64,000 bases of DNA from an uncultured Actinomycetes bacterium (lineage in GTDB: Bacteria; Actinomycetota; UBA4738; HRBIN12): positions 101,388-165,387 of the forward strand of contig CAWBAK010000004.1 in assembly GCA_963786805.1 (NCBI GenBank), read 5' to 3'. Below the pieces are notes generated by a model. It had not been told where the DNA came from. It saw only the letters and a program-made list of their open reading frames with translations, and did not search any database. Of the stretch, positions 36,917-49,661 are shown in pieces. A program made the position numbers and the translations under genes. Each line of letters starts with the position of its first letter. The first letter of the stretch is position 1.

Positions 36917-37005
36917 GGTTGCCTCCCTCTAGTGAGAGCAACTCATACCCGCCTGCGGGCCGTTTCAGGCGTCGAGCCCACCGATTCAAGAGGGAGATGT
37001 AGAGA

Positions 37006-37037
37006 GCCCCGTGACGGCGAACCGCCACGGGGCTCCT
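37006..37037. other. Perfect 10-bp inverted repeat (gagccccgtg...cacggggctc) with a 12-nt loop, in the intergenic space between two small minus-strand ORFs
   Basis: Read directly from the sequence. It is a possible terminator or regulatory hairpin. Confidence 0.3.
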
Positions 37038-37054
37038 GCTGGGGAGCCCTTCCT

Positions 37055-37354: not shown

Positions 37355-37628
37355 CAGACCTTCCCGCTGCCGTAAGTCACCGAGTATCCCAAGCGCCCGA
37401 TGCTCGAGATGAGAGGAAACTCACCGGTGCGAGCTCGCTCGTTCAGACGGGCACGAGACCGGCGAGCTCACCCCAGGTCCGTGTCCGGTTATGTGCTCTG
37501 AAGCGTATCGACGCGGCTCCCCCGTTGCTCCGTGCTGCAACCAAAAGGAATGCTTCTTCAAGCATGCGGAGGTCGCTGCGGGGGTAACGACTTACGTGGA
37601 TCTCCGCATCAGGGGAAGGGAGACAGCG

Positions 37629-38489
37629 ATGCCACCTCGGCTCCGTTCGAGCATCTCTCGGATCATCGGCTGCACGATCGCCCTGCTCGTCGTCGTCGTG
37701 CCGCTTCAAGCCCTGGCGGACGAGCCGTTGATCGGAGGGGCTGAAGCGGCCCTGCCCACTGCCGGAGTCGTCACCGAGGTCGTCGAAACCGTGGAAGTGA
37801 TCGAGGAGGTCGAGCCGCCGGCAGAGGTCGTCGAGGAAGTCGAGCCGGTGGCAGAGGTCGCCGCCGAGGTTGAGCAGACGGCCGGAGGAGCGGTGGAGAG
37901 CGTCGGCGATGCGGCGGCCGAGGTGGTCAACGAGGCTCCGACCGTCGAGGAGGCCCAAGGAGCGGCCGGCAACGCCTCGGGGCAGGTCCAGGGAAACGCC
38001 GGCGCGGTGGTGAACAACGCATCCGCGAGCGGCGGATCGGCCGCGGATGCGACCGCCGGATCGGGCGGATCGGCGGACACCGGAGCTTCTCCCGGGGCCG
38101 GCAAGCACGCGGAACATGGCGCCCAGCCGACGGATGAGCGGATCACGGTCGCGTCGACGGGATCGACATGGCGACGGACGCATTTCGCCCGACTGGGTGT
38201 GGTCGTGCCCGCCGCTTCGTTCCTGTACCAGCCGTTGACGCTTCAAGGGAGCCCGGCCGATGAGCCCGAAGTCGACCCATGCGAAGACGATCCGGGGCTG
38301 GCGTGTCTGGGTCTCCTGTTCGGCATCGGCGAGTTCGCCGAGGCCGGCGGTGACGTCCTCGGTCTCTTCCTCGCCGCGACTGGCGTCGTTCTGCGTGGCC
38401 TGATCGTCCTCGCATTCGCCCTGCTGCTCGCCGGAGTCGTCGCTCTTTCGATCGCGCCGAGGCGCGCGACGCCTCGCGGGACGGGCTGA
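37629..38489 (+). CDS. Secreted acidic low-complexity protein with EV-rich repeats (EVVEEVEP) and a C-terminal TM anchor
   Basis: Signal peptide MPPRLRSSISRIIGCTIALLVVVVPLQALA, then VVTEVVETVEVIEEVEPPAEVVEEVEPVAEVAAEVEQ..., then a C-terminal hydrophobic stretch. The RBS is gggaagggag. Confidence 0.55.
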   Translation: MPPRLRSSISRIIGCTIALLVVVVPLQALADEPLIGGAEAALPTAGVVTEVVETVEVIEEVEPPAEVVEEVEPVAEVAAEVEQTAGGAVESVGDAAAEVVNEAPTVEEAQGAAGNASGQVQGNAGAVVNNASASGGSAADATAGSGGSADTGASPGAGKHAEHGAQPTDERITVASTGSTWRRTHFARLGVVVPAASFLYQPLTLQGSPADEPEVDPCEDDPGLACLGLLFGIGEFAEAGGDVLGLFLAATGVVLRGLIVLAFALLLAGVVALSIAPRRATPRGTG

Positions 38490-38502
38490 CCCTGGAGCCG
38501 GG

Positions 38503-39135
38503 TTGGCGAACGCCGGTCAGAACGCCTCGGCGAGGCGCCGGTCTCATCCGGCTCGAGATTGGCTGGGCGACCCCTACCGCGATCGCGCGCACTGGTACTT
38601 CCTCGTCTGCTTGATCGTCACCGCGACGTTGCTCTTCGTTGCGGAGCGCAACGATCGGCCTTCCGGCTCTACGGATGAGGCGCCGGGCGCAGGATCACTC
38701 GCGCGCGGGCTCGTCGAGTATGAGAACCGGACGGGGGGATATCGGTTCATCTACCCCCAGACCTGGGATCTGCGAAACGACGGTCGCTTCACGCAAGTCA
38801 CGAGCCCGGATGGAACGATCGACCTTTCGTTCCAACCGCGTCCGAACGGTACACAGGGGCTCTCTGCAAGCCCGCTGCTTCGGCCCTCCGACCCCGAACA
38901 CTCTCACGAGCGCCTGATCGGATCGCGATGGGAGCTGATCGGAGGCTCGCTCTCGCTCCTCGTCGGCGGCACCGCGACCGACACATCCGGTCGCCGGGTG
39001 CGTTTCCTCCAGATCTCGGTGGGCGCCGAGCCGCGGGACTACTCCATCACCATCGTCGTGCCGTTCAAGTCCGATCCCGAAGAGGTCCTCCCTCTGGTCG
39101 AGGAGATCGTCTCTACCTTCGACACCATCGAGTAG
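38503..39135 (+). CDS. Hypothetical membrane-anchored protein
   Basis: A TM helix (HWYFLVCLIVTATLLFVA) is followed by a soluble domain. The start is a TTG or GTG and is uncertain. Confidence 0.4.
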   Translation: MANAGQNASARRRSHPARDWLGDPYRDRAHWYFLVCLIVTATLLFVAERNDRPSGSTDEAPGAGSLARGLVEYENRTGGYRFIYPQTWDLRNDGRFTQVTSPDGTIDLSFQPRPNGTQGLSASPLLRPSDPEHSHERLIGSRWELIGGSLSLLVGGTATDTSGRRVRFLQISVGAEPRDYSITIVVPFKSDPEEVLPLVEEIVSTFDTIE

Positions 39136-39157
39136 CCATGCTGGGAGGGGCGATCCG

Positions 39158-40078
39158 CTAGTCGGCGATCTGCCAGGCATCGGACTCGGCGGCCTGCCCG
39201 CAGCTGAAGTGGTCGTACAGGATCGTGTTTCCGCGGGGCCTCACCTGAACGTGAGTCCTTCCGATGTCGTCCCCGTTCGGGAGGCGCCACAACTCCGCGC
39301 GGGACCCATCGAGGCGTTCGCGGATCAGCCTCACGCGGTTGCCACATCCGCTCCGCGCCCGCGCGTAGTACACCGTCCCCTCGAGATCGACCGAAGGCGC
39401 GTGGTACCGAAGGTGGCCCGGGTTGGCGATCGTTTCCGACTCGCCGGTCGGGATGTGGTACCGGACGATGTTGCACTCGGACTTCGAAGGACACCGGTAC
39501 CAGACCGCCCACGCCCCGCTCACTTGGCCCGGCGCGAGGAATCTGTTCACTCCCCGTATCTTGGCGAGTCGTTTCGCCACGCCGGTCGACAGGTCGAACA
39601 GGATGATGCGTCTCGTGGTGTTCTCCTGAAGACGACCGAAGAGCAGCCATCGCCCGGAGGTGCTCGGCCAGTACTCCCAGTGCTCGGTGTTGATGCCTGA
39701 AGGAGGTTTGCTCCGCTCGCCGGTGGACAGATCGAAGAACCGCAGCCCGGACCGCCCGCGTTCGAACTGTTGGTAGACGAGTCGGTCGCCCTCGATGTCG
39801 CCATTGGCCCCGTTCGTGCCCGGAGGATTGACGCGCGTTTGCGAGCCGGTGTCCACCGAGCGGGCGATCACGTCGTAGTGCCGCGGACGCTTCCTCGTGT
39901 TCTGCTGCCATGCGAGCCAGCCGCTTCCTCGGACCGGTTGGAACTCGCCGACCCTCGGCCGGCCGAGGATGACCTCCGGAGTGCCGGCGTGCGCAGAGGG
40001 CGCGTCCACGAGACACAGCAGGATGACCGCGAGTGCCAGCGACACCGACGAGATCCACCGCCGCGGGTACCTCGACAT
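39158..40078 (-). CDS. Secreted hypothetical protein, possibly a beta-propeller or TolB-like fold
   Basis: Signal peptide MSRYPRRWISSVSLALAVILLCLVDAPSAHA, with the SD gggagg upstream of ATG 40078. Repeated motifs of the form W-x-G/YY... suggest propeller blades. Confidence 0.45.
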   Translation of the reverse strand: MSRYPRRWISSVSLALAVILLCLVDAPSAHAGTPEVILGRPRVGEFQPVRGSGWLAWQQNTRKRPRHYDVIARSVDTGSQTRVNPPGTNGANGDIEGDRLVYQQFERGRSGLRFFDLSTGERSKPPSGINTEHWEYWPSTSGRWLLFGRLQENTTRRIILFDLSTGVAKRLAKIRGVNRFLAPGQVSGAWAVWYRCPSKSECNIVRYHIPTGESETIANPGHLRYHAPSVDLEGTVYYARARSGCGNRVRLIRERLDGSRAELWRLPNGDDIGRTHVQVRPRGNTILYDHFSCGQAAESDAWQIAD

Positions 40079-40129
40079 CGCGGTCCCTCCCCACCTGCTC
40101 ATCCCACGATACCGCGCGAGTTTCGGCAG

Positions 40130-40789
40130 TCAGCCGGGCACCGCGAGACGCGCTCGACGCCGGATCGTCACGTCGCGGACCTCCGTCACCAGGGCGGCGA
40201 CGGTGAGCGCGATCCCGGCGCCGAGGAGCGTGCCCGCCACGACGTCGGAGAACCAGTGGGCGTTCAGGTACACCCTCGACAGGGCCATCGCGAACGAGAA
40301 CAACGCGGCATACACCTCCCACCGCCTCCGGTGGGGGCCGGCAGGCAGGAGCACCAGCACGAGCGCGATCGCCGTCGCGGCGGTGGCCACGGCGTGTCCC
40401 GACGGGAAGGAGAACCCTCTCGTGTCGACGAGCGCGCCCGGTGGCCGAGGCCGTGCGTACCAGGCCTTGAACACCAGCAGCGCCACCTCCGCGACGAGCC
40501 AGATCAGCAGCCACGTCGCGAGCGCGCGCCAACGGCGCCGCACCGCGAGGAACACGGCCACCACGGTGCGGAGCGGGATCAGGACCCATCCACCGCCGAG
40601 CACGTTGAGCACCCTGGCGAGGACCGTGAGCGGGGCGTTCCGGATGTCGTCCGCGCCGCGATACACGACGTCGTCCACGGCCTGCACCGACGGCCTCGTC
40701 GCGTCGAACCCGACGAGCACGAACACCAACACAGTGACGAAGAGCAACCCCGCCGCGTAGAGCAGCGCTCGTCGATGGTTCGTCAGCAC
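40130..40789 (-). CDS. PAP2-superfamily phosphatase (phosphatidic acid phosphatase type 2-like)
   Basis: Motifs K..(6)..RP-like (YARPRPP), SFPSGH and SRV(Y)LNAHWFSDV are present. The start is uncertain (GTG 40789). Confidence 0.65.
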   Translation of the reverse strand: MLTNHRRALLYAAGLLFVTVLVFVLVGFDATRPSVQAVDDVVYRGADDIRNAPLTVLARVLNVLGGGWVLIPLRTVVAVFLAVRRRWRALATWLLIWLVAEVALLVFKAWYARPRPPGALVDTRGFSFPSGHAVATAATAIALVLVLLPAGPHRRRWEVYAALFSFAMALSRVYLNAHWFSDVVAGTLLGAGIALTVAALVTEVRDVTIRRRARLAVPG

Positions 40790-40802
40790 GGTTGGGCTTC
40801 GC

Positions 40803-41390
40803 TCATCCGGGGCAGGGGCTCGCTCCGAATCCGCAGAGCTCGAGGCCCACGGTCTCGCGCATCCGCTCCACCAGCGGGAGGCGCGGGCGGAAGCTGAGGG
40901 CATCGTCGATGTCGACGGCAAGCGCGGGCGAGGCGTTCGGGTTGAACGCGAAGCGGTAGGTCACACAGCCGCCTTCGAACAGGTAGTAGCGGTTCGCCGC
41001 GAACCGCGGCGGCAGGCTGATCGGCTCCTCGAACCGGCGCGTCCCGGTCTCGTCGAGTCCCCGGACGCGACCTCGATCGCCTCGGACACGTCGCAGGTCT
41101 CGGTCAAGGGATACCCGGACCGCCTGGAACCCTGCCCGGTCCGAGTCGAGCCAGAAGCTCGCGCTGCCGTTCTCGATGTCCGATCCGCCGAAGATCCACC
41201 CGACGGGGAACTCCTCGATGCAGGGCAACAGGCTCGCGGTCGGGACGGCCTGCGCCGCGAGGATCATGCTCGGGTCACCCAACTCGCAGGTGACCTGATG
41301 GAACTGGCGCGACTCACACGCGGGAAGCACCGCGAGCGCGACTACGATCGCCGCGCACCACGACGCCCGCCGGCTCCAGCCGCGGATCAC
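40803..41390 (-). CDS. Putative lipoprotein or secreted protein (195 aa)
   Basis: The product begins VIRGWSRRASWCAAIVVALAVLPACESRQ.... The GTG at 41390 overlaps the upstream stop (GTGA). The upstream part of ORF 40803..42842 is Arg-rich antisense noise. Confidence 0.5.
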   Translation of the reverse strand: MIRGWSRRASWCAAIVVALAVLPACESRQFHQVTCELGDPSMILAAQAVPTASLLPCIEEFPVGWIFGGSDIENGSASFWLDSDRAGFQAVRVSLDRDLRRVRGDRGRVRGLDETGTRRFEEPISLPPRFAANRYYLFEGGCVTYRFAFNPNASPALAVDIDDALSFRPRLPLVERMRETVGLELCGFGASPCPG

Positions 41391-43081
41391 GTGAACACGC
41401 TCCAGTTGCTCACCAACAACAGGAGCGACAGCAGGGACAGGAGCAGGACCATCACCGTGAGCCCGACCCTGCGGAAGCTCCATCGTTGGATCGGGATCGG
41501 CTCCCGCTCGGGAGCCAGGGCTCGGAACTCGGACACGAGGTCGCGGCCGTCCTTCTTCATCTCGGTCCGGAGCTGCGTCGGGCTCGCGATCCCGCGCGTG
41601 GCGGCGAACGCCTCCGCGATCTCGTCCGGCGTGAAGTATTCGAGCGCCGCCTCGTACACGCGGGCGGCGTCGGACTTGAGCGCGAGGACGAGCATCATGT
41701 TCGCAAGGTCGACCGCCTGGCGCCACGGCGAAGGACGGACCTGCACGAAGAACACGTCGATCAGCAGGACCTCGCCGTCGCGAACCATCAGGTTCGCCGG
41801 CTTGATGTCGCGATGCGCGAGTCCCGCGTCCCACAGGTCGCGGATGAGCTTCAGGCCGCCGTGGATCACTCCATCGTCGACCTCGGCCTCGCTGATCTCG
41901 ACCGCACCCTTGAAGAACTCGGTCACGATCATGTACTCGCGCTCGGGCGTGATCTCGACGATGCCGTAGGGCTTGGCGGTCGGGATGCCGGCGTCCTCGA
42001 GCAGGCGCAGCGTGTAGTCCTCGTACTCGACGAAACGGCGGACCGATTGGAACGGGGCCTCGTCCTCCAGCGCCCCGTACAGGATGGTCCGGCCGAGCTT
42101 GTACCAGCGGTCGGCGCGCACGTGGTTCTTCGCGTACAGCTTCGCGAAGACGTACCGCTCCGGCTCGGTCTCGGTCGCGGCGACGCGCAGGCGAAGGGGC
42201 GTCGAGCCGCCCGAGCCCTCCAGACCCACGGGCTTGGCCTCGAGCACGGTCAGCCCGAGCTGGTCGCCGACCGCCTTCTCGATCGCCTCCCCGCGGCGAC
42301 CGCCGACGTCCAGGTGCGCGGACTTGCCGCGCCGGTACGTCACCGGGAACACCTCGTTCGGCGTGAACCACCGGAAGGCGACGAGCGCGACGGCGACGCC
42401 GAAGATCGCCGCGAAACCGGCGTCGGTCGGGCGGTCCACCGCGAGGTACAGGCGCGCACCGACGAGCGCGAGGATCAACCCGCCGATGACCCACTTGGCG
42501 AGTTCTCGGGGCCGCCCGGGGATCACGAGCGAATAGATCATCCCGACGAGCGTTCCCGCGAACGCCGCGACCGGCTGCGACGGCATCGCGAAGCCCTCCC
42601 AGTCGCCGAGGATCAGGATGCCGAGCGGACGGGGTCGCGCGAGCGAGATCGCGATCTCGTGCGTGAGGATCTCGAGCGCCAGGATGCTTCCGAGGAACAC
42701 GAAGAGGTGACGCCAGCGCTTGAACACGACGAGCCCGAGGATCGTGCCCCACCGCAGCACGCGGACCGTCCAATCCGACCCGAGCACACTCACTCCCGAG
42801 GCGAGATCGGTGAGCCAGCCCGTTCGCAGCGTCGCGAGCCACCGGAGCCGCGCGGTGTCGAACCGGTCGAAGATGCCCAGCAGGTTGTCGAACAGGAGCA
42901 CGCCGAGCAGGACCGAAAGGAAATACCCAGTCATGATCAGCCAGAACTTCCCGCTTCGGCCGAGCTCGCGCGGGAGCGGGGGCGCCTCCCCGGAGGGCCG
43001 TCGATGCGGGCCGCCGGAACGATCTCGAGGATGCCGTGCTTCGGCGGCGCTCGTCGCCGGAGTGTGTTCGGTCGTGTCCAT
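41387..43081 (-). CDS. Membrane protein with an N-terminal polytopic domain (degenerate PAP2-like) fused to a C-terminal protein-kinase-like domain (Kdo/RIO-like)
   Basis: About six TM helices, then LAHRDIKPANLMVRDGEVLLIDVFF (catalytic-loop-like). The ATG at 43081 has a strong SD (aggagg). Confidence 0.6.
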   Translation of the reverse strand: MDTTEHTPATSAAEARHPRDRSGGPHRRPSGEAPPLPRELGRSGKFWLIMTGYFLSVLLGVLLFDNLLGIFDRFDTARLRWLATLRTGWLTDLASGVSVLGSDWTVRVLRWGTILGLVVFKRWRHLFVFLGSILALEILTHEIAISLARPRPLGILILGDWEGFAMPSQPVAAFAGTLVGMIYSLVIPGRPRELAKWVIGGLILALVGARLYLAVDRPTDAGFAAIFGVAVALVAFRWFTPNEVFPVTYRRGKSAHLDVGGRRGEAIEKAVGDQLGLTVLEAKPVGLEGSGGSTPLRLRVAATETEPERYVFAKLYAKNHVRADRWYKLGRTILYGALEDEAPFQSVRRFVEYEDYTLRLLEDAGIPTAKPYGIVEITPEREYMIVTEFFKGAVEISEAEVDDGVIHGGLKLIRDLWDAGLAHRDIKPANLMVRDGEVLLIDVFFVQVRPSPWRQAVDLANMMLVLALKSDAARVYEAALEYFTPDEIAEAFAATRGIASPTQLRTEMKKDGRDLVSEFRALAPEREPIPIQRWSFRRVGLTVMVLLLSLLSLLLLVSNWSVFT

Positions 43082-43106
43082 CGATCCTCCTGGGACTCGG
43101 CCGATG

Positions 43107-44064
43107 CTAGTCGTTCGGCCCGGAAAGGCCGTGCTCGGCCAGCCAGGCCGTCGCGACCTCACGCGGCGACTGTCCCTCGGCGACGCGCGCGTTCAGCTCC
43201 CGGAGGTCTCCGGTGGTCAGCAGCGCAGAGACCGAATCGACCAACCGAACGAACGCGTCCCCGTGCGCCTCGACGACCTCCTCCCGGACGACCGGGGTCA
43301 CGTTCTCGGCGGGCTGAAGGCCCAGGTCGTCGTAGAGCAGGACGAAGTCGTACAGGTCGATCGCCGCGTCGGTCGTGAAGAGCAGGGCCACGTCCACCGT
43401 GCCCGATCGCAGGGCGGTGACCGAGACCGGACCGCCGGCATCCAGCGTCTGGAACGATCCGAACTCCAGGCCGTACACGTCCTCCAGACCCCCGAGGCAG
43501 AGCGGGCGCTCCGGACACTCCGGAGGGCCACCGAACGCAAGCTCGGGAGCTTCGGGCACGAGCTGGCTGATCGAGCGAAGGCCGTACCGATCCGCCGTCT
43601 CGCTGGTCACCGCGAAGCCGTTCTGGTCCTGGGCCGGAGCCGGCGAGAGGACCGCCACGCCGCGCTCCGCGAACACTTGTTCCAGCCGGTCGTGCGTCAG
43701 CGCCTCGTCGGAGGTGGCGAAGCCCTCGCCGCGCGTCAGGAACTCGAGCGCCGAGCCCGAGTACTCCGGAACGAACTCGACGAGTCCGCGCTCCAGCGAA
43801 GGTTCGACGAGCTCGCGCGCGCCGAGCCCGAGCTGGCGCTGTCACCGCGAACCCCTCACCCTCGAGGGCCTGCGCGTAGATCTCCCCGACGAGCACGCTC
43901 TCGGGGAAGTTGAACGACGCGACGGTGATCGCATCGTCGTCGAGCGCCGTCGTGGTGGCCGGCGGCACGCCCCGCCCGCACGCGGCGGCGAGGAGCAGCG
44001 CGGCGGCGAGGATCATCGCGGAACCGGGAACGACGCGGTTGCGCTCGGGAGCGCGGACGCGCAT
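43107..44064 (-). CDS. Glycine betaine/choline-type ABC substrate-binding protein (OpuAC-like lipoprotein) with an apparent frameshift near 43830
   Basis: The N-terminus has a lipobox (MILAAALLLAAACG). The C-terminal half is in ORF 43107..43676 (VTALRSGTVDVALLFTTDAAI...). Confidence 0.55.
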
Positions 44065-45011
44065 CAGCCGGTCGAGGCCGGCACGCGCTCCGCTTCCTGT
44101 TCGCGGCGCCAGCCCGTGTTCGCGCGCCACCACAGGTAGGTGAAGCCGCCGAGGGGGATCTGCACGACGTACGTCAGGACCCGGAACAGCAGCACCGCCG
44201 CGACGACCTGCGGCTCGTTCCCGCCGGCCGCCACCAGCCCGCCGATGTAGCCGAGCTCGACGACGCCGAGCCCACCGGGCGTGATCGGAAGGGCGCCGAG
44301 CAGCCGCCCGAACGCGTACACGGCCAGGACCTGGAGCGTCGAGACCTCGGCCTCGGAGATCCCCACGTGTCGGAGGGCGAGCAGCAGCACGAGCCACAGC
44401 GCCAGATGCGACATCACCGTCGTGACCGTGATGGCGAGCCATCGCTTCTCGACGAGCTCGATCGTGCGCCTGCGGAACGCGACGGCCTGCTCTCCCCAGG
44501 TCGTGATCGGCTTCTTCCCGAAGGGGCGAAGCACGGCCGAAACGAACCGCCCCAGGCCGTCGCCGATCCGCCGCGCGAGCTCCTGCTTCCACAGCGCGAG
44601 AGCGAACAACCCCACGGCGACGGCGAGGACGGCGAGCCCGATCAACGCGGCCGCGACGAGCGCACCGGTTGCCTGGCCGGTGATCGCGAGCAGCGCGAGC
44701 GCCACGATCGGCAGCCCGAGCTTGAGGAAGACGTTCCAGATGCCGGTCACGCCCACGTAGAGCGCGATCGCGTGGTTCCCGAAACCCCAGGACCGCAAGA
44801 TCGTGTAGCTGAGGCCGACGGCAACCGCTCCGCCGGCCGGCAGGAGGTTCGCGACCGAGGTCGTCGTCTGCGTGACGACGGCGGACTGCGTGAGCTTCAA
44901 GCCCGGAAGCGCCGCCATGTTCGCGAGCCAGTAGGTGAACAGGTTGAACACCATGGCGGCGGCGATCGTCGACAACTCGATCGGGGTGAGCGAGGAGATC
45001 GTCGCCCACAC
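44064..45011 (-). CDS. Flippase-like TM domain protein (lysylphosphatidylglycerol synthase TM-region family, TIGR00374/UPF0104). The N-terminus probably extends upstream.
   Basis: The ORF is a polytopic membrane protein. The in-frame upstream sequence encodes a basic stretch plus a TM helix (RRKRIRRIGGAVLSLVIVVAIFAFAIPRIADYSE) with no canonical start codon, which suggests another indel. Confidence 0.5.
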   Translation of the reverse strand: MWATISSLTPIELSTIAAAMVFNLFTYWLANMAALPGLKLTQSAVVTQTTTSVANLLPAGGAVAVGLSYTILRSWGFGNHAIALYVGVTGIWNVFLKLGLPIVALALLAITGQATGALVAAALIGLAVLAVAVGLFALALWKQELARRIGDGLGRFVSAVLRPFGKKPITTWGEQAVAFRRRTIELVEKRWLAITVTTVMSHLALWLVLLLALRHVGISEAEVSTLQVLAVYAFGRLLGALPITPGGLGVVELGYIGGLVAAGGNEPQVVAAVLLFRVLTYVVQIPLGGFTYLWWRANTGWRREQEAERVPASTG

Positions 45012-45230
45012 CTCCGAGTAGTCGGCGATCCGAGGGATCGCGAACGCGAAGATCGCGACGACGATGACCAGCGACAGGACCGCGCCGCCGATCCGCCGGA
45101 TGCGCTTGCGCCGCGCAGCGTCGGCGTCCGTACGCTCCGCGGCGTCAGCGGTCGTGCTCGGTGCGTGGTCGGTCTGAGTGCTCGGGCTCGGTCACGGTGC
45201 GGCGAGCCTAGCACCCAGGTGTTCGGGCGC

Positions 45231-45578
45231 TTATCCGTCGCCTTCCTCGGTGTCGCCGTCCTCATCGACGCCGCCGGCTCCGTCGTCATCTGCGGCGCTG
45301 CCGATGACCTCGAAGTTCGCGTTCAGGTTGACCTCGACCTGACTGCCGTCGGCGAGGCGCACCTCGACCGAGTACGCGGCGCCGTCGTCGCCGATCTCGG
45401 ACTCGGTGACGGTTCCACCCCCGGTGTGCTCGAGGGCCACCGCGGTCGCCTGCTCGAGGTCGCTTCCCGTCAGCGGTTGGTCGTCGTCCCCCATCGTGGC
45501 GACGCCGATCCCGGTGCCGATGCCGATCACGGCCACCCCGGCAAGTGCTCCGACGATCACCTTGCTTCTCGTCTTCAT
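45231..45578 (-). CDS. PepSY-domain protein (secreted or membrane-anchored)
   Basis: MKTRSKVIVGALAGVAVIGIG...GGTVTESEIGDDGAAYSVEVRLADGSQVEVNLNANFEV. There is a strong SD (ggaggagg). Confidence 0.65.
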   Translation of the reverse strand: MKTRSKVIVGALAGVAVIGIGTGIGVATMGDDDQPLTGSDLEQATAVALEHTGGGTVTESEIGDDGAAYSVEVRLADGSQVEVNLNANFEVIGSAADDDGAGGVDEDGDTEEGDG

Positions 45579-45690
45579 CGTTGCCTCCTCCTGCGGCGGC
45601 CCGGACGCGATCTGCGGGTCGGCCCGCCACACCCGGACAGGATGCGTTCCCGAAGCTGAGGCTGGGCTGAACGACCCTGAACGAGCGGGA

Positions 45691-47031
45691 TCAGCCCGTC
45701 CGCGCCGGGAAGCGGAGCTCGAAACGGGCGCCTCCGAGTTGGCTCTCGGTCACGACGACCGTGGCGCCGTGCGCGAGCGCGATCTCCCGGACGATCGCCA
45801 GGCCGAGCCCGCTGCCGCCCGAGTCCCGGTCGCGCGCCTCCTCCAGCCGCACGAACCGCTCGAAGATCCGGTCGCGCTCATCCGGCGCGATCCCGGTCCC
45901 GTCGTCGTCGACGGTGAGCACCACCTCGCCGTCGGCCTGGCGGAGGGAGAGCGCGACCGCACGGCGCGCGTGCCGCCCGGCGTTCTCGAGGAGGTTGCGC
46001 ACCAACCGCTCGAGCTGCGCTCGGTCACCTTCGACCCGGCCGCCCGAGACGTTCGAGGGGTCGACGTGCAGATCCGACGCCGAGCCGTTCAGACGCGATG
46101 CCTCCGCGAGCACGAGGTCGTCGAGGTCGACCGGCTCGCTTCGGCTGCTCAACGTCCCCTCGTCCGCCCGCGTCAAGAGAAGCAGGTCCTCCACGAGACG
46201 CTGGAGGCGCAGGTCTTCCTCGAGCACGACCTCGGCGAGCTCCGGGGTCCCGATCCGATCCGGATGGGCCATCGCGATCTCGGCGTGCTCGCGGATCGTC
46301 GCCACCGGCGAGCGCAGCTCGTGCGACGCGTCGGAGACGAACCGGCGCTGGCGCGCCTGGCCCTCCTCGAGCCTGCCGAGCATGCGGTTCATCGTCCGCG
46401 CGAGGCGCGAGATCTCGTCCTTCCCGGCGCGGTGCGGCACCCGGCGATGCAGCTCGCGGCTCGAGATCGCCTCGACCTCGCTCCGGATCGATTCGACCGG
46501 CGCGAGGGCGCGTCCGACGACGAGCCAGGTGACGACGCCGACCACGAGCAGGAGCAGCGGGATCCCCCCGGCGAGGAGGCCGGCCGTGGCGACGGTCGAC
46601 TCGGTGACGGTTTCGAGGCTCATCCCGACGATCACCGTCACGGGACCGCTCGAGCCGATGGCCGAGGTCGCCACGACCAGGAACGGTTCGCCCTCGTCGA
46701 CCGGCCCCGGATCGAGCCGCCGCGTCTCGCCGGGCGCCAAACGAACGACCGGAGCCGGCCCGGACAGGTTGGCGCTCGACGCCACCACGTCGCCCTGCGC
46801 GTCGAGGGCCTGCGCGAACTCCTCCTCCTGGTCGCCGATCGGGATCGGCTCGCCCGGCGGCGGCGAGCGCAGGAAGTCGGCGACCGTCGCGGCTCGCACG
46901 AGCGCGGCCGTGCGGACGTCGTCGGTCAGCGATCGGCGGAGCAGGCTCACCATGAGCACCGACCCGATCAGCAGGGCCACGCCCACGACGACGACCGCGA
47001 GCGCGGTCGTCCGCACGCGCACGCTACCCAC
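45691..47031 (-). CDS. Sensor histidine kinase (HAMP, HisKA and HATPase_c domains)
   Basis: Two TM helices, the H-box (SHELRSPVATI), and the N, G1 and G2 boxes (DDDGTGIAPDE...GGSGLGLAIV). The GTG start overlaps the end of the response-regulator gene. Confidence 0.8.
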   Translation of the reverse strand: MGSVRVRTTALAVVVVGVALLIGSVLMVSLLRRSLTDDVRTAALVRAATVADFLRSPPPGEPIPIGDQEEEFAQALDAQGDVVASSANLSGPAPVVRLAPGETRRLDPGPVDEGEPFLVVATSAIGSSGPVTVIVGMSLETVTESTVATAGLLAGGIPLLLLVVGVVTWLVVGRALAPVESIRSEVEAISSRELHRRVPHRAGKDEISRLARTMNRMLGRLEEGQARQRRFVSDASHELRSPVATIREHAEIAMAHPDRIGTPELAEVVLEEDLRLQRLVEDLLLLTRADEGTLSSRSEPVDLDDLVLAEASRLNGSASDLHVDPSNVSGGRVEGDRAQLERLVRNLLENAGRHARRAVALSLRQADGEVVLTVDDDGTGIAPDERDRIFERFVRLEEARDRDSGGSGLGLAIVREIALAHGATVVVTESQLGGARFELRFPARTG

Positions 47032-47701
47032 CGTCGGCCGCCAGTCGGTAGCCGGAACCCCGCACGGTCTGGATCGCGTTGCGTTCGAAGGGGCGGTCGA
47101 TCTTGTTCCGGAGGTGCGCGACGTACACCTCGACGATGTTCGGGTCGCCCTCGAAGTCGTAGTCCCACACGTGCTGGAGGATGTCGAGCTTGGACAGGAC
47201 CTCTCCCTTGCGCCGCAGGAGGAACTCGATGACGGAGGACTCTCGTGCGGTCAGGTCGAGCTCGACGTCTCCCCTCCAGCCTCGGCGGGCTCCGGGGTCG
47301 AACCGAAGGTCCCCGGCCTGCAGGACCGCCGGGCGTTCGGCGGCTCCCCGCCGCATCAGGGCGCGGAGCCGCGCCACCAGCACGACGTAGGAGAACGGCT
47401 TGGTGAGGTAGTCGTCCGCGCCGGTGTCGAGGGCCTCGGCCTCGTCGAACTCGCCGTCCTTGGCGGTGAGCATCAGGATCGGCGTCCAGATCCCCTCGTC
47501 GCGGAGCGTGGCGCAGACCTTGAAGCCGTTCACGCCCGGCAGCAGGATGTCCAGGACGACCGCGTCGTAGGGGTGCTCGCGCGCCATCCACAGGCCGTCG
47601 TTCCCGTTCAGGGCGACGTCGGTCGCGAACCCCTCGGCCTCCAGGCCGCGCTTGAGCCCTGCGGCGAGCCGCTTCTCGTCCTCGACGACCAGGACCCGCA
47701 C
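47024..47701 (-). CDS. OmpR-family response regulator
   Basis: REC domain (MRVLVVEDE...D...LTAK) plus a winged-helix domain (VEVYVAHLRNKI). The start is a GTG. Confidence 0.85.
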   Translation of the reverse strand: MRVLVVEDEKRLAAGLKRGLEAEGFATDVALNGNDGLWMAREHPYDAVVLDILLPGVNGFKVCATLRDEGIWTPILMLTAKDGEFDEAEALDTGADDYLTKPFSYVVLVARLRALMRRGAAERPAVLQAGDLRFDPGARRGWRGDVELDLTARESSVIEFLLRRKGEVLSKLDILQHVWDYDFEGDPNIVEVYVAHLRNKIDRPFERNAIQTVRGSGYRLAADGG

Positions 47702-47841
47702 CGTCGGCCTCGTTCCTCTCCCCGGCCGGCCATCTTCTCAGGGGTTCCTGAAAGCCGCCTGAACGCCGGCGCGCTTCCTTCAGCCCGGGTTCAGCGACGG
47801 TGGGACATCCTCGGATGACCAAGACACCGAGGAGGTGCGAC

Positions 47842-48582
47842 ATGAACCGAAGGCTCGCCGCACTCGGCATCGCGACCGGGCTCGCGCTCGGAACGTTGCC
47901 GGCCGGGATCGCCGGCGCAGGCTCGTGCAACGCCCCGCTGCCGCAGGGGAGCGAAACGGTCACGCTCGACCCGGCCGACTTCGTGGACCGGATCGACAAT
48001 CCCTTCTTCCCGATGGCGCCAGGAACCCGATGGGTGTACCGGGAGTTCGACCTCGAGGCGTCGCAGCGCGTCGTGGTGACCGTCCTTTCGCGCACGAAGG
48101 ACATCTCCGGCATCCAGGCGACGGTCGTGCACGACGTCGTGTCCGAGCGCGGCGAGCTCATCGAGAACACCTTCGACTGGTACGCGCAGGATTCCTGCGG
48201 GAACGTCTGGTACCTGGGTGAGAACACGAAGGAGTACGAGAACGGCGAGGTCGTCACCACGGCGGGATCGTGGGAGCACGGCGTCGACGGCGCCATGGCG
48301 GGTGTCATCATGCCCGCCGACCCGCAGGTCGGCCTGGCCTACCGGCAGGAGTACTACGCCGGAGAGGCCGAGGACGCCGGCGAGGTCATGAGCCTGGACG
48401 AGCAGGCACAGGTGCCGTTCGGCCACTTCCGCGACGTCCTGCTGACGAAGGACTTCACGCCGCTGCACCGGCGGGTCCTCGAGTACAAGATGTACGCGAG
48501 AGGCATCGGGCCGGTCCTGGTGCTGGGTGTGTCGGGCGGTTCGGACCGCGAGGAGCTGCTCCGCTTCCGCGCGCCGTCGTAG
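47842..48582 (+). CDS. Secreted hypothetical protein
   Basis: Signal peptide MNRRLAALGIATGLALGTLPAGIAGA, with the SD ggagg upstream. Confidence 0.5.
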   Translation: MNRRLAALGIATGLALGTLPAGIAGAGSCNAPLPQGSETVTLDPADFVDRIDNPFFPMAPGTRWVYREFDLEASQRVVVTVLSRTKDISGIQATVVHDVVSERGELIENTFDWYAQDSCGNVWYLGENTKEYENGEVVTTAGSWEHGVDGAMAGVIMPADPQVGLAYRQEYYAGEAEDAGEVMSLDEQAQVPFGHFRDVLLTKDFTPLHRRVLEYKMYARGIGPVLVLGVSGGSDREELLRFRAPS

Positions 48583-48588: not shown

Positions 48589-49242
48589 CTACCGTCCGTT
48601 CGCCGAGAAGTGCTGGTAGTCCTGGGCCGAGCTCCAGGTCCCGCCCCACTCCCAGCCGATCCGGTGGAAGGCGCGCCAGACGACGTCGCGCTCGAAGATC
48701 ATCCCCGGCCGGACGTCCGAGCGGTCGGCGTAGGGTTCGCCGTTCGGCGGCGAGACGTAGGACCCGTCGACGTACGGGTTCTCGACCGGGTTGACGTCGA
48801 TCGCGCGTCCGTACGCGTGTTGCGACCACACGGTCGTTCCCGCCACGTAGCGGCAGTTGAACGCCGAGGTGTTGTCGTGCCGCATCGACTCCCGGTCGTC
48901 GGCGTCGTACCGGTCGACGAGGCGCAGGCGGCGGATCGGGAACTCGCGCCGGTAGAGGCGGCGGAACACCTCGACGATCTCGTCGGCCCAGCGCCGGTGC
49001 ACGACCAAGCGGCCGCGGTGCGCCTCCCCATCGAACCCGAGATACGTGAGACGCACGAGTCGCAGGGCCTTCAGGCCGACCGGACACCCCTCGTGCCACG
49101 AGCTCCCCGTCATCAGCTCCTGCGTCTCGCGGTCCAGTCGAGAGATCGACGCCGCGAAGGGCTCGCCTCCACCGGCCCCGACATCAGCAGGAACCCCGAC
49201 GACGGCGACCACGATCGCGACGACGAGCAGCGAACGGCGCAC
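48589..49242 (-). CDS. M15-family peptidase (VanY/D-Ala-D-Ala carboxypeptidase-like, zinc-dependent)
   Basis: N-terminal TM/signal region, then HxxxxxD...H motifs (SQHAYGRAIDVNP...DYQHF). Confidence 0.55.
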   Translation of the reverse strand: MRRSLLVVAIVVAVVGVPADVGAGGGEPFAASISRLDRETQELMTGSSWHEGCPVGLKALRLVRLTYLGFDGEAHRGRLVVHRRWADEIVEVFRRLYRREFPIRRLRLVDRYDADDRESMRHDNTSAFNCRYVAGTTVWSQHAYGRAIDVNPVENPYVDGSYVSPPNGEPYADRSDVRPGMIFERDVVWRAFHRIGWEWGGTWSSAQDYQHFSANGR

Positions 49243-49244
49243 GT

Positions 49245-49553
49245 CTAGGCGGTGGCCGCGGCCTGTTCGATCCGCCAGAGCCCGACCTCGTCCAGCCTCG
49301 TCATCACTAGGACCCGCATGACCGGAGGGGAGGGCTCGCGGAGCACGAGCGCCCGTCCTCGCATCGACAGGCCGAGCTTGACCAGACTTCGGACGCCGGA
49401 GCTGTCGAGGAACCGGACGCGGGACAGGTCCAGCACGAGCGCCCCGCTCCCCACGATGACGCGCTGAACGGCCTCGTCGAACCGGTCGGAGGTCGTCCGA
49501 TCGAGGTCGCCGGCCACCCACAGCTCCTGGGGTGAGACCTCCTCGATCTCCAT
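49245..49553 (-). CDS. STAS-domain protein (anti-sigma-factor antagonist, SpoIIAA-like)
   Basis: MEIEEVSPQELWVAGDLDRTTSDRF...LVLDLSRVRFLDSSGVRSLV. Confidence 0.6.
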   Translation of the reverse strand: MEIEEVSPQELWVAGDLDRTTSDRFDEAVQRVIVGSGALVLDLSRVRFLDSSGVRSLVKLGLSMRGRALVLREPSPPVMRVLVMTRLDEVGLWRIEQAAATA

Positions 49554-49661
49554 GGACACCTGCCTGGTCACCCCTCCACCCTCTCGCTCCCTCGTTCTCT
49601 CGGTCAAGGGACCCTTTTCACCCATCTCAAGTGGGGGTTCCACCGAGTCGAAACCCTAGGG

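What the first reader, a model, noticed from the sequence alone, without database searches (positions are those of the whole stretch)
40130..47701. Envelope-remodelling operon downstream of a two-component system: PepSY, flippase-like TM protein, SBP, TM-kinase, lipoprotein and PAP2
Eight consecutive minus-strand genes with short gaps or overlaps: OmpR-type response regulator, histidine kinase, PepSY protein, MprF-TM-like flippase-domain protein, OpuAC-like binding lipoprotein, a polytopic membrane protein fused to a protein-kinase-like domain (HRDIKPANLM), a lipoprotein, and a PAP2 lipid phosphatase. Together they suggest a regulated lipid-headgroup or lipoglycan modification and translocation system. 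The TM-plus-kinase-like fusion is particularly unusual.
Basis: partly seen in the sequence, partly recalled or inferred. Interest (0 to 1): 0.6.

Follow-up and report, generated by a model that had tools for sequence, protein, structure and literature searches.

The report
Dead-phosphatase kinase, flippase, phosphatase membrane module
The eight genes are real, and five of them form an uncharacterised membrane gene module found widely in Actinobacteria, built around a kinase fused to a catalytically dead lipid phosphatase and probably handling or sensing a membrane lipid.

Summary
The eight minus-strand genes lie at 40130-47701 as described. Three of them (flippase-like gene, binding protein, lipoprotein) carry small insertions in this assembly. 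purE and a decarboxylase nearby do too, so these are probably assembly errors.

The membrane part of the 564-aa "TM-kinase" is a PAP2 lipid-phosphatase fold that has lost both catalytic histidines. Its kinase-like domain keeps the catalytic residues but has no activation loop.

In 84 loci from diverse Actinomycetota, the cysteine-rich lipoprotein domain follows the kinase or is fused to it in 78 of 79 testable cases. Among 47 loci with at least 5 kb on both sides, the flippase-like gene is nearby in 35, an active PAP2 in 32, and the orphan OpuAC-type binding protein in 28. Fusions join the kinase to the lipoprotein domain, to a live PAP2, to receiver/LuxR domains and to STAND-TPR domains. A paralogue lacking the catalytic aspartate is fused to the flippase-like domain.

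The two-component system and PepSY gene are a recent, lineage-specific addition (1 of 47 loci). A TTCAG-N5/6-TTCAG repeat marks their promoter regions.

My best reading, which is inferred, is a lipid-phosphate sensor kinase that controls a lipid translocator and phosphatase. The main rival is an enzymatic lipid-headgroup pathway. I found no published characterisation. Interest is moderate to high.

The parts
47024..47701 (-). OmpR/PhoB-type response regulator. It belongs to a lineage-specific regulatory cassette, not to the conserved module.
   Evidence: PF00072 at 92 bits and PF00486 at 85 bits. No NCBIfam equivalog reaches its cut-off. Found next to the module in only 1 of 47 loci.
45691..47031 (-). 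Class I sensor histidine kinase with two TM helices, an extracytoplasmic loop, and HAMP, HisKA and HATPase_c domains.
   Evidence: Its best NCBIfam subfamily is the heavy-metal sensor type, at 219.8 bits, below the 292.55 cut-off.
45231..45578 (-). Membrane-anchored PepSY protein of 115 aa, part of the cassette.
   Evidence: NF051432 PepSY_MTB at 103.6 bits against a cut-off of 60. Pfam PepSY at 23.7 bits against 24. An ortholog is present in L003 only.
44064..45195 (-). Stand-alone PplT / LPG_synthase_TM flippase-like membrane protein. The reading frame is broken near the 5' end in this assembly.
   Evidence: PF03706 at 53.6 bits against a cut-off of 33.4. The bifunctional MprF model scores 49.6 bits against 600, so there is no synthase domain. 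Intact 368-aa orthologs exist in L003. Within 6 kb of the kinase in 35 of 47 loci.
43107..44064 (-). Orphan OpuAC-type substrate-binding lipoprotein. It has a +1 insertion at about 43841 in this assembly.
   Evidence: PF04069 at 125.7 bits. Intact 315- and 322-aa orthologs. Best solved relative is A. fulgidus ProX, E 1e-22. The pocket is altered: Y111N in 47/47, Y214E in 45/47, Y190F in 39/47. No ABC permease or ATPase genes in the gene tables.
41387..43081 (-). KinA, 564 aa. It has a cytoplasmic N-terminal RRPSGEAPPLP motif, a six-TM catalytically dead PAP2 domain, a cytoplasmic atypical kinase domain and a C-terminal TM helix.
42365..42961 (-). Pseudo-PAP2 domain (residues about 41-239). The remnants of the three PAP2 motifs read ARPRP, MPSQP and GARLYLAVDRPTD.
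   Evidence: The family profile matches B. subtilis PgpB (5jki) at E 9e-15, and the fold match has TM 0.72. Both catalytic histidines are absent throughout alignment A1 and in 0 of 84 loci. The domain is 28-31% identical to the neighbouring live PAP2.
41516..42301 (-). Atypical protein-kinase-like domain (residues about 261-522). Motifs are GSGGSTP, K314, HRDIKPAN and IDVFF, and there is no activation loop.
   Evidence: Catalytic residues are invariant or near-invariant in A1. All Pfam and NCBIfam scores are below cut-off for the window protein. RIO1 passes its threshold in some homologs. Fold hits are RIOK3, RIOK1, PRPK and generic kinases.
40803..41390 (-). Cysteine-rich extracytoplasmic lipoprotein ('Lipo'), the near-universal partner of KinA. 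This copy has a 16-residue frameshifted patch.
   Evidence: No Pfam or NCBIfam hit. A lipobox cysteine plus six conserved cysteines. Directly downstream of the kinase or fused to it in 78 of 79 loci. Fused in 38 of 150 cluster representatives. AF2 pLDDT 85, with only weak PsbP/LpqN/Apa/RseB-like fold hits.
40130..40789 (-). Catalytically intact PAP2 lipid-phosphate phosphatase, 219 aa.
   Evidence: PF01569 at 58 bits. The motifs KAWYARPRP, PSGH and SRVYLNAHWFSD are present. Within 5 kb of the kinase in 32 of 47 loci. Fused N-terminally to KinA in P0164.
45667..45681 (-). TTCAG-N5-TTCAG direct repeat, 89-103 nt upstream of the pepSY start. Candidate response-regulator box.
   Evidence: Three matches in 64 kb against 0.05 expected. 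Conserved in L003, with a change in the spacer.
47748..47763 (-). TTCAG-N6-TTCAG direct repeat, 47-62 nt upstream of the response-regulator start.
   Evidence: It lies in a 20-nt block that is identical in L003, within a region that is 84% identical overall.
47779..47794 (+). TTCAG-N6-TTCAG direct repeat, 48-63 nt upstream of the divergent 246-aa gene.
   Evidence: The half-sites are conserved while the spacer varies.
47842..48582 (+). Divergent 246-aa secreted protein with no known family. It is probably part of the same inserted regulatory cassette.
   Evidence: No Pfam or NCBIfam hit. The L003 ortholog is 77% identical. It shares the intergenic region that carries two repeat boxes.

Best explanation
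**What the conserved unit is.** It is a five-part membrane module: KinA, Lipo, a PplT-type lipid translocator, one or more active PAP2 lipid-phosphate phosphatases, and an orphan binding protein.

**Proposed mechanism (inferred).**
- KinA is a receptor-like kinase. Its dead PAP2 domain is a paralogue of the neighbouring live enzyme and faces the outer leaflet. In the window's subfamily it still has the phosphate-contacting arginines but neither catalytic histidine. I propose that it binds, without hydrolysing, the same phosphorylated lipid that the live PAP2 processes.
- The disulfide-rich Lipo domain is tethered at the outer face, and the binding protein probably sits there too. Together with the dead PAP2 domain they would form the sensing surface.
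- Occupancy would be passed to the cytoplasmic kinase domain. This domain is catalytically competent but has no activation loop, like RIO and Bud32 kinases.
- The kinase domain would then control the PplT translocator by phosphorylation or an ATP-dependent switch. In many genomes the translocator is fused to a KinA paralogue that has lost the catalytic aspartate, giving an active-kinase/pseudokinase pair.
- The net function would be homeostasis or recycling of a lipid phosphate. A polyprenyl (pyro)phosphate is the leading candidate.

**The local addition.** In the window's lineage a cassette of four genes (246-aa secreted protein, OmpR-type regulator, histidine kinase, PepSY) was inserted upstream. 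It probably drives or modulates transcription through TTCAG-N5/6-TTCAG boxes.

**Shown versus inferred.** Shown here: domain identities, loss of catalytic residues, linkage, fusions and the repeat motif. Inferred: topology, the ligand, the kinase substrate and the direction of control.
For: **Linkage**
- Lipo follows KinA or is fused to it in 78 of 79 loci.
- Among 47 well-flanked loci, Flip is nearby in 35, PAP2 in 32 and OpuAC in 28. All four are present in 24.
- The gene tables of L001, L002 and L085-L087 show the same pattern.

**Fusions**
- KinA-Lipo in 38 of 150 cluster representatives.
- PAP2-KinA-Lipo in 2.
- REC(-LuxR)-KinA in 2.
- STAND-TPR-KinA in 4 or more.
- A KinA-like paralogue fused to PplT in 17 of 84 loci.

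**The PAP2 domain is dead.** PSGH has become PSxP, and the motif-3 histidine has mostly become aspartate, throughout A1 and in 0 of 84 loci. The fold is retained, and the domain is 28-31% identical to the adjacent live PAP2.

**The kinase looks competent.** The G-loop, K314, HRDxKxxN and D442 are conserved. The HRDxKxxN form is the one typical of Ser/Thr protein kinases (general knowledge).

**The flippase-fused paralogue looks inactive.** Its catalytic loop reads AHR[S/G/A/H]LxxxN, while the lysine and the DFG aspartate are kept.

**Signalling-type partners recur.** These include REC/LuxR and STAND-TPR fusions, and a HisKA_3 kinase inserted into the module in L087.

**Lipo is extracytoplasmic.** It has six conserved cysteines and a lipobox, or else is placed after the C-terminal TM helix.

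**The binding protein has no transporter genes nearby** and carries a conserved pocket that is not the betaine type.

**Regulator boxes.** Three matches against 0.05 expected, all flanking the two-component system, and conserved in L003.

**Precedent.** M. tuberculosis MviN is a flippase carrying a regulatory pseudokinase domain (PMC12599244).
Against: - No experiment exists on any member of the family.
- The kinase has no activation loop or obvious protein-substrate groove. That is as compatible with a small-molecule or lipid kinase, or a pure ATPase, as with a protein kinase.
- Marginal Kdo/WaaP and APH matches occur.
- Known fusion partners of PplT domains are mostly lipid-modifying enzymes (preprint 10.1101/2022.03.11.483950).
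- The remnants of the PAP2 active site are not strictly conserved in the most distant family members, which weakens the ligand-binding argument.
- Nine of 47 loci contain only KinA-Lipo, with no flippase, PAP2 or binding protein nearby. KinA-Lipo can therefore act without them, or with partners encoded elsewhere.
- The 84/84 count for HRDxKxxN is circular, because the loci were retrieved with that pattern.
- The lipid identity is a guess. The only pointers to undecaprenyl diphosphate are automatic annotation and a 40-bit SepP match against a cut-off of 250.
Confidence: 0.42

Rival explanations
1. Enzymatic lipid-headgroup pathway, which is essentially the first reader's idea. The kinase domain phosphorylates a membrane lipid or lipid-linked sugar at the inner leaflet. 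PplT flips the product. At the outer face the live PAP2 removes or transfers the phosphate, helped by Lipo and the binding protein. The dead PAP2 domain and the pseudokinase paralogue would act as substrate-holding adaptors.
For: - The MprF precedent of an enzyme paired with a PplT flippase, and the list of PplT fusion partners, which is dominated by lipid-modifying enzymes (10.1101/2022.03.11.483950).
- HexSDF is a two-component-regulated glycolipid operon with a stand-alone MprF-like flippase (PMC10128005).
- The kinase lacks an activation loop, as sugar and small-molecule kinases do.
- Marginal Kdo/WaaP and APH hits.
- A phosphatase is co-conserved with the kinase.
Against: - It does not explain the fusions to receiver/LuxR and STAND-TPR domains.
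- It does not explain why the domain fused to the flippase has lost the catalytic aspartate.
- It does not explain KinA-Lipo loci that lack a flippase or PAP2 nearby.
- The HRDxKxxN loop is the protein Ser/Thr kinase form.
- No glycosyltransferase or other headgroup-building enzyme is conserved in the neighbourhood.
Confidence: 0.3
2. ATP-powered lipid translocation. The RIO/Bud32-like domain acts as an ATPase switch rather than a kinase and drives conformational cycling of the PplT translocator. In fused proteins it would act on the PplT domain in the same chain; in genomes like this one it would act on a separately encoded PplT.
For: - The best fold matches include RIOK3, RIOK1 and PRPK/Bud32, which act mainly as ATPases (general knowledge).
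- There is no substrate-binding activation segment.
- Kinase-like and PplT domains are directly fused.
- PPK2 lies next to the flippase gene in L002 and L085.
Against: - The domain actually fused to PplT has lost the catalytic aspartate and its G-loop. It is therefore the least likely of the two to hydrolyse ATP.
- MprF-type flippases are not known to need ATP.
- RIO-specific motifs are absent.
Confidence: 0.08
3. In this particular genome the cluster is decaying. The flippase-like gene, the binding protein and the lipoprotein would be true pseudogenes, so the system would be non-functional here whatever it does elsewhere.
For: There are frame disruptions in three of the eight genes, and a near-invariant cysteine is lost in the lipoprotein.
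Against: - The same kind of +1 insertion hits purE and a PLP-decarboxylase within 12 kb.
- All the disruptions are insertions, which looks like a systematic assembly or polishing error.
- Codon-position GC in the disrupted genes is still that of coding sequence.
- Relatives 86-93% identical are intact.
Confidence: 0.12
4. The genes are chance neighbours with no functional coupling.
For: Only that no transcript data exist and that the two-component system is not conserved with the rest.
Against: - Co-occurrence across classes of Actinomycetota, at 51-75% kinase identity.
- Translational coupling, with overlapping stop and start codons.
- Several independent domain fusions.
Confidence: 0.03

Closest known systems
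M. tuberculosis MviN/MurJ (Rv3910), a lipid II flippase with a cytoplasmic pseudokinase domain (ActPs3 family; PMC12599244)
   Same: It is an actinobacterial polytopic lipid translocator fused to a kinase-like domain that has lost catalytic residues. In MviN that domain has a regulatory role and is controlled by an active kinase.
   Different: - The translocator here is PplT/LPG_synthase_TM, not MOP/MurJ.
- The pseudokinase here keeps the lysine and the DFG aspartate and loses only the HRD aspartate and the G-loop. ActPs3 has all motifs degraded.
- The presumed active partner (KinA) is itself fused to a dead PAP2 domain, unlike PknB with its PASTA domains.
- The kinase domains are not close in sequence.
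MprF, and the PplT family described by the Peschel laboratory (10.1101/2022.03.11.483950)
   Same: The flippase-like protein is a PF03706 member (53.6 bits). That preprint already notes that several Actinobacteria have a protein-kinase domain fused N-terminally to PplT.
   Different: There is no aminoacyl-PG synthase domain (bifunctional MprF model 49.6 bits against 600). The preprint does not describe the dead-PAP2 kinase, Lipo, PAP2 or binding-protein partners, or the loss of the catalytic aspartate.
C. difficile HexRK-HexSDF (PMC10128005)
   Same: A two-component system sits next to an operon that remodels membrane lipids and includes a stand-alone MprF-like flippase. The phenotype is envelope-antibiotic resistance.
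   Different: The Hex operon encodes a glycosyltransferase and a deacetylase. It has no kinase, PAP2, binding protein or Lipo. Here the link to the two-component system is recent and untested.
Membrane PAP2 phosphatases: B. subtilis PgpB/YodM (5jki), BcrC, SepP
   Same: The stand-alone 219-aa protein has all three catalytic motifs. The KinA N-terminal domain has the same fold (E 9e-15, TM 0.72).
   Different: The KinA domain lacks both catalytic histidines. The substrate of the live enzyme is unknown, and every equivalog score is far below its cut-off.
RIO, Bud32 and Kdo/WaaP atypical kinases
   Same: All have a small kinase fold without an activation loop. Foldseek finds RIOK3, RIOK1 and PRPK. 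Some homologs pass Pfam's RIO1 threshold.
   Different: - The P-loop reads GSGGST, not STGKEA.
- The catalytic loop reads HRDIKPAN, not HxDLSxxN.
- There is no RIO N-terminal helix or wHTH domain.
- There is no KEOPS partner.
- The protein is membrane-embedded.
- The Bud32 model scores 20.8 bits against a cut-off of 125. The automatic 'Bud32' names are misannotations.
OpuAC/ProX compatible-solute binding proteins (A. fulgidus ProX, 1sw2)
   Same: The fold and family are the same (PF04069, E 1e-22). The arginine that binds the carboxylate and one box tyrosine are retained.
   Different: Two of the four box tyrosines are replaced (N and E) and a third becomes F, consistently across 47 orthologs. 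No ABC transporter genes lie nearby.

Membership tests
OmpR/PhoB response regulators | Receiver domain plus a winged-helix Trans_reg_C domain | tested here: met
   PF00072 at 92.3 bits and PF00486 at 85.5 bits.
Named response-regulator equivalogs (CopR, MtrA, CseB, PhoB and others) | Score above the NCBIfam equivalog cut-off | tested here: not met
   The best score is 220.6 bits against 279.2 (cztR_silR_copR). All others are below their cut-offs.
Class I histidine kinase | HAMP, HisKA and HATPase_c domains | tested here: met
PepSY | Match to a PepSY domain model | tested here: met
   NF051432 at 103.6 bits against 60. The Pfam score is marginal, 23.7 against 24.
PplT / LPG_synthase_TM (PF03706) | Match above the Pfam gathering score | tested here: met
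   53.6 bits against 33.4.
PplT / LPG_synthase_TM (PF03706) | Lipid translocation activity | not testable with these tools
   This needs a biochemical flipping assay.
MprF (bifunctional) | C-terminal aminoacyl-PG synthase domain | tested here: not met
   The protein is only about 375 aa. NF033480 scores 49.6 bits against 600 and covers only the flippase part.
OpuAC-type substrate-binding protein | PF04069 match and a lipoprotein signal | tested here: met
   125.7 bits. A lipobox (LAAACG) is present in the N-terminal part.
Glycine-betaine or choline binding proteins | Aromatic box for the quaternary ammonium group (Y63, Y111, Y190, Y214 in AfProX) | tested here: not met
   Y111 is N in 47/47, Y214 is E in 45/47, Y190 is F in 39/47, and only Y63 is kept. 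The residue numbering of the box comes from my own knowledge of the AfProX structure.
ABC importer system | Adjacent permease and ATPase genes | tested here: not met
   None appear in the gene tables of seven loci or in the window region.
PAP2 phosphatase (the stand-alone 219-aa protein) | The motifs KX6RP, PSGH and SRX5HX3D | tested here: met
   KAWYARPRP, PSGH and SRVYLNAHWFSD are present. PF01569 scores 58 bits.
Undecaprenyl-diphosphatase (SepP, BcrC, PgpB equivalogs) | Score above the equivalog cut-off | tested here: not met
   SepP scores 40.3 bits against 250, and PgpB 37.6 against 261. The JGI names are automatic.
PAP2 phosphatase (the KinA N-terminal domain) | PAP2 fold | tested here: met
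   The family profile matches 5jki at E 9e-15. Foldseek gives TM 0.72 and rmsd 3.9.
PAP2 phosphatase (the KinA N-terminal domain) | Catalytic histidines of motifs 2 and 3 | tested here: not met
   The motifs read MPSQP and AVDRPTD. Both histidines are absent across A1 and in 0 of 84 loci.
Protein-kinase-like superfamily (the KinA C-terminal domain) | G-loop, beta3 lysine, catalytic HxD...N loop and metal-binding aspartate | tested here: met
   GSGGST, K314, HRDIKPAN and D442 are conserved in A1. The AF2 model matches the kinase fold.
Hanks-type Ser/Thr protein kinases (PF00069) | Gathering score reached, and an activation segment with an APE motif | tested here: not met
   17.7 bits against 31.7. 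Only about 8 residues separate IDVFF from the next helix.
RIO kinases | PF01163 above threshold plus RIO-specific motifs (STGKEA, HxDLSxxN, IDxxQ) and an N-terminal RIO helix or wHTH | tested here: not met
   There is no RIO1 hit for the window protein. A few homologs score 23-28 bits against 22. The motifs differ. The motif definitions come from my own knowledge.
Bud32/KEOPS | Equivalog score and a Kae1 partner | tested here: not met
   20.8 bits against 125. No Kae1 or TsaD gene lies in the neighbourhood.
Kdo/WaaP LPS kinases (PF06293) | Gathering score | tested here: inconclusive
   16.1 bits for the window protein and up to 21.0 in homologs, against a gathering score of 21.3.
PsbP/Mog1/LpqN-like fold (the Lipo domain) | Significant structural match | tested here: inconclusive

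The most novel reading that the evidence does not exclude
This is a previously unrecognised class of bacterial transmembrane receptor kinase. A dead PAP2 phosphatase domain, with a tethered cysteine-rich ectodomain and an orphan binding protein, would read the level of a phosphorylated lipid in the outer leaflet. It would signal through a minimal RIO-like kinase to a pseudokinase-coupled PplT lipid translocator. That would be the first regulatory circuit described for MprF-type flippases, and a widespread actinobacterial system for lipid-carrier homeostasis.
Probability: 0.3. Interest if true: 0.8.

Novelty: new variant of a known kind. Interest (0 to 1): 0.62.

Why it matters
- **Size of the family.** It spans Acidimicrobiia and several orders of Actinomycetes, including cultivable Geodermatophilus and Blastococcus. 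Databases nevertheless label it 'Bud32', 'RIO1' or 'PAP2 family protein'.
- **Open questions it could address.** How PplT/MprF-type translocators are controlled is unknown. How Gram-positive bacteria sense the state of lipid-phosphate carriers is only partly understood.
- **A testable entry point.** The module combines a dead enzyme used as a sensor, an active-kinase/pseudokinase pair, a translocator and the live enzyme. This gives a genetically compact way into both questions.
- **Possible practical relevance.** Envelope-targeting antibiotics such as bacitracin and daptomycin act on exactly these lipids.
- **Value even if the sensor model is wrong.** The enzymatic alternative would still reveal a new phosphorylated lipid pathway.

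Tried and rejected
- **Bud32/KEOPS and RIO membership.** The names are suggested by JGI and NCBI, but I rejected them on scores, motifs and context.
- **MprF identity of the flippase-like gene.** Rejected, because there is no synthase domain.
- **Glycine-betaine transporter role for the binding protein.** Rejected on pocket residues and the absence of permease genes.
- **Two-component system as part of the conserved system.** Rejected, since it accompanies the module in only 1 of 47 loci and is absent in L085.
- **Specific pseudogenisation.** Judged unlikely, because purE and a decarboxylase carry the same kind of insertion.
- **Known RNA element or leader upstream of pepSY.** No credible Rfam match (one weak sub-threshold hit to ASdes inside the SBP gene, E 0.7), and the fold z-score is -0.28.
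- **Sigma-70 promoters and intrinsic terminators.** Nothing above background.
- **Known actinobacterial pseudokinase families ActPs1-3.** Their motifs and architectures do not fit.
- **Literature searches** for PAP2-kinase fusions or a characterised member found nothing specific.
- **Technical caveats.** My locally built 'PAP2' HMM also absorbed the dead PAP2 domain. Stand-alone PAP2 calls therefore rest on non-overlap with KinA, and only about 60% of them match the strict catalytic regexes. The single OpuAC-KinA 'fusion' (P0170) starts at a contig edge and I did not count it.

Full report
**Observation.** The window is high-GC (about 70%) DNA from an uncultured member of the Actinomycetota. 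Eight genes lie head-to-tail on the minus strand between 40130 and 47701:
- an OmpR-type response regulator (47024-47701);
- a HAMP/HisKA/HATPase_c histidine kinase (45691-47031), overlapping the regulator by 8 nt;
- a 115-aa membrane-anchored PepSY protein (45231-45578);
- an LPG_synthase_TM / PplT flippase-like protein (44064-~45195);
- an OpuAC-type lipoprotein (43107-44064);
- a 564-aa membrane kinase (41387-43081);
- a lipoprotein of about 195 aa (40803-41390);
- a 219-aa PAP2 phosphatase (40130-40789).

Several stop and start codons overlap (TGATG, GTGA), and the remaining gaps are 13-112 nt. The source's own gene calls agree on 564, 195 and 219 aa.

**Assembly quality.** I compared the window with two relatives, L004 (92.6% DNA identity) and L003 (86%).
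- The binding-protein gene has an extra C at about 43841.
- The flippase-like gene has lost frame in its 5' tail.
- The lipoprotein gene has a +1 and a +2 insertion about 40 nt apart. These replace 16 residues and remove a cysteine that is conserved in every other family member examined.
- purE and a PLP-decarboxylase a few kb away carry the same kind of +1 insertion.

All five events are insertions, housekeeping genes are hit as well, and codon-position GC is still that of coding sequence. I therefore read them as assembly or polishing errors rather than decay of this cluster. Only the reads can settle this.

**The membrane kinase (KinA).** The membrane part is in fact a PAP2 domain.
- A profile of 25 diverse homologs matches B. 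subtilis PgpB (5jki) at E 9e-15.
- The AlphaFold model (pLDDT 81) superposes on 5jki with TM 0.72.
- The domain is 28-31% identical to the stand-alone PAP2 two genes downstream.
- Both catalytic histidines are gone. PSGH reads MPSQP, and SRx5Hx3D reads ARLYLAVDRPTD. This holds across the alignment and in 0 of 84 retrieved loci.

The stand-alone PAP2, by contrast, has all three motifs intact.

The kinase domain keeps a G-loop (GSGGST), the beta3 lysine (K314), HRDIKPAN and the metal-binding aspartate (IDVFF). Only about eight residues separate that aspartate from the next helix, so there is no activation segment. No curated model claims the domain:
- Pkinase, Kdo, APH and Bud32 are all below cut-off for this protein.
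- Some homologs just pass RIO1, APH or Pkinase.
- Foldseek returns RIOK3, RIOK1 and PRPK/Bud32 mixed with generic kinases.

I treat it as a distinct protein-kinase-like family. The database names 'Bud32' and 'RIO1' are misleading. A cytoplasmic N-terminal motif with consensus RRRRPSGEPPPLP is nearly invariant, and a C-terminal TM helix places the C-terminus outside the cell.

**Size and spread of the family.** The word-index search saturated at 8,000 hits. The exhaustive search found 2,008 clusters at 50% identity. A scan of one genome per species returned 80 loci. These were mostly uncultured Actinomycetota and Acidimicrobiia. They also included Blastococcus, Geodermatophilus saharensis DSM 45423, Frankiaceae, Pseudonocardiales, Jatrophihabitantaceae and Streptosporangiaceae.

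**Conserved linkage.** I built HMMs for each neighbour and mapped them on 84 loci.
- The lipoprotein domain ('Lipo') lies directly downstream of KinA, or in the same reading frame, in 78 of 79 loci that have enough downstream sequence.
- Among 47 loci with at least 5 kb on both sides, the flippase-like gene is nearby in 35, a separate PAP2 in 32, the OpuAC protein in 28, and all four in 24.
- Gene tables from independent contigs show the same thing, often between ribF and truB.
- A response regulator, histidine kinase or PepSY gene is adjacent in only one of the 47, the close relative L003.
- L085 has a kinase 84% identical to the window's and the same glgE neighbourhood, yet lacks the cassette.

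The conserved unit is therefore five genes. The two-component system, the PepSY gene and the divergent 246-aa gene form a recently inserted cassette.

**Fusions.** Among the 150 best cluster representatives:
- 38 are KinA-Lipo fusions;
- 2 are PAP2-KinA-Lipo;
- 2 carry an N-terminal receiver domain, one of them with a LuxR helix-turn-helix as well;
- at least 4 carry an N-terminal STAND NTPase plus TPR array.

In 17 of 84 loci a paralogue with the same membrane-plus-kinase layout is fused at its C-terminus to the flippase-like domain. [quoted passage not shown] In these fused paralogues the catalytic loop reads AHR[S/G/A/H]LxxxN and the G-loop is degraded, while the lysine and the DFG aspartate remain. 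By the usual criteria they are pseudokinases. They do not match the ActPs1-3 families reviewed in 2025.

**The accessory proteins.**
- *Lipo.* It has no Pfam or NCBIfam match. It has a lipobox cysteine plus six conserved cysteines, which fits an extracytoplasmic, disulfide-bonded domain. Its model (pLDDT 85) gives only weak matches to PsbP-like sandwich proteins, including mycobacterial LpqN and Apa, and RseB.
- *The binding protein.* It is closest to A. fulgidus ProX (E 1e-22). Of the four tyrosines that form the betaine box, only one is kept. The others are N (47/47), E (45/47) and F (39/47) across orthologs from the module, while the carboxylate-binding arginine is retained. No transporter genes are nearby. 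It probably binds a conserved but different ligand and acts as an accessory or co-sensor.

**Local regulation.** Both intergenic regions that flank the two-component genes contain TTCAG-N5/6-TTCAG direct repeats.
- One lies 89-103 nt upstream of pepSY.
- One lies 47-62 nt upstream of the regulator gene.
- One, on the opposite strand, lies 48-63 nt upstream of the divergent 246-aa gene.

These are the only three matches in 64 kb, against 0.05 expected. The same three sites exist in L003, with conserved half-sites and variable spacers. I defined the pattern from two of the sites, so the statistic is somewhat inflated. The third site and the conservation in L003 are independent. A spacing of 10-11 bp suits an OmpR-family regulator. 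No terminator is detectable between pepSY and the flippase-like gene, so read-through into the module is plausible but unproven.

**Mechanism.** Two readings fit most of the data.

I favour a sensor/regulator model (confidence about 0.42). The dead PAP2 domain, together with Lipo and probably the binding protein, would report the level of an outer-leaflet phosphorylated lipid. That lipid would be the substrate of the neighbouring live PAP2, from which the dead domain is derived. The minimal kinase would then control the PplT translocator, directly or through its pseudokinase partner. Arguments for this model:
- the dead-enzyme domain;
- the active/inactive kinase pair;
- the fusions to receiver, LuxR and STAND-TPR domains;
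- the HRDxKxxN loop typical of protein Ser/Thr kinases;
- the MviN flippase-pseudokinase precedent in mycobacteria.

A lipid or glycolipid would be phosphorylated inside the cell, flipped by PplT and processed outside by PAP2, by analogy with MprF and HexSDF. The missing activation loop, the marginal Kdo/WaaP similarity and the usual fusion partners of PplT domains all fit this. It explains the signalling-type fusions and the dead domain fused to the flippase less well.

A smaller possibility is an ATPase switch that powers flipping.

The lipid is unknown. Polyprenyl (pyro)phosphate is a reasonable guess, based on what membrane PAP2 enzymes usually do. It is supported only by automatic annotation and weak scores.

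**Novelty and verdict.** All the domains belong to known superfamilies, and one fusion has been noted in a preprint. I found no description or experiment on any of the following:
- the dead-PAP2 kinase;
- its near-universal Lipo partner;
- the pseudokinase nature of the flippase-fused paralogue;
- the five-gene module.

I rate it a new variant of a known kind, namely a membrane translocator with a kinase-like regulator, or a receptor kinase with a dead-enzyme sensor. Interest is 0.62. Its interpretation is partly supported: the functional linkage and the envelope-lipid theme hold, the two-component link is local and recent, and the enzymatic mechanism is not the best-supported one.

Noticed in passing
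window 51104 and 51530 (also 43841, 41107, about 41066 and about 45150): Single-base insertions relative to close relatives break purE, a PLP-dependent decarboxylase and three genes of the cluster. All are insertions, mostly of C. This suggests systematic assembly or polishing error in the 734-kb source contig.
   Followed up: partly
window 36300-40100: This roughly 3.8-kb stretch has lower GC (0.65) and is absent from L003, which has only about 600 nt between PAP2 and the guanylate cyclase gene. It holds a 314-aa secreted ORF with a faint beta-propeller repeat hit (39158-40102, minus strand) and two plus-strand ORFs (38503-39135 and 37491-38489). It looks like a lineage-specific insertion.
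   Followed up: no
window 28194-33574: GlgE (31532-33574) and a TreS-Mak fusion (28194-31532) of the alpha-glucan pathway lie on the minus strand. The same neighbours occur in L003 and L085.
   Followed up: no
L002 14075-14935; L085 4428-5258: A PPK2 polyphosphate kinase gene lies directly next to the flippase-like gene, or overlaps it, in two independent loci.
   Followed up: no
L087 10999-13131: A 710-aa HisKA_3 (NarL-type) histidine kinase is inserted between PAP2 and the flippase-like gene. Together with the REC-LuxR-KinA fusions (P0138), this shows recurrent, non-homologous links between the module and two-component signalling.
   Followed up: partly
window 45579-45690: The 112-nt region upstream of pepSY is 90% identical to L003, above the 86% regional mean. 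It has no credible Rfam match and no significant RNA fold (z -0.28).
   Followed up: yes
window 42971-43003 (KinA residues 27-37): A nearly invariant cytoplasmic N-terminal motif, with consensus RRRRPSGEPPPLP, is present. The serine position is S or T in about 80% of sequences. It could be an autophosphorylation or docking site. The AlphaFold model gives it low confidence.
   Followed up: partly
L006 (DASUQI010000025.1): This is the only locus with ample flanks in which KinA has none of Lipo, PAP2, the flippase-like gene or the binding protein nearby. Nine further loci have only KinA-Lipo fusions. Some genomes carry two KinA paralogues; L033 and L048, for example, come from one MAG.
   Followed up: no
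window 48592-49643: A Peptidase_M15_4 gene (48592-49179, minus strand) and a STAS-domain protein (49245-49643, minus strand) flank the cassette. Both are conserved in L003.
   Followed up: no
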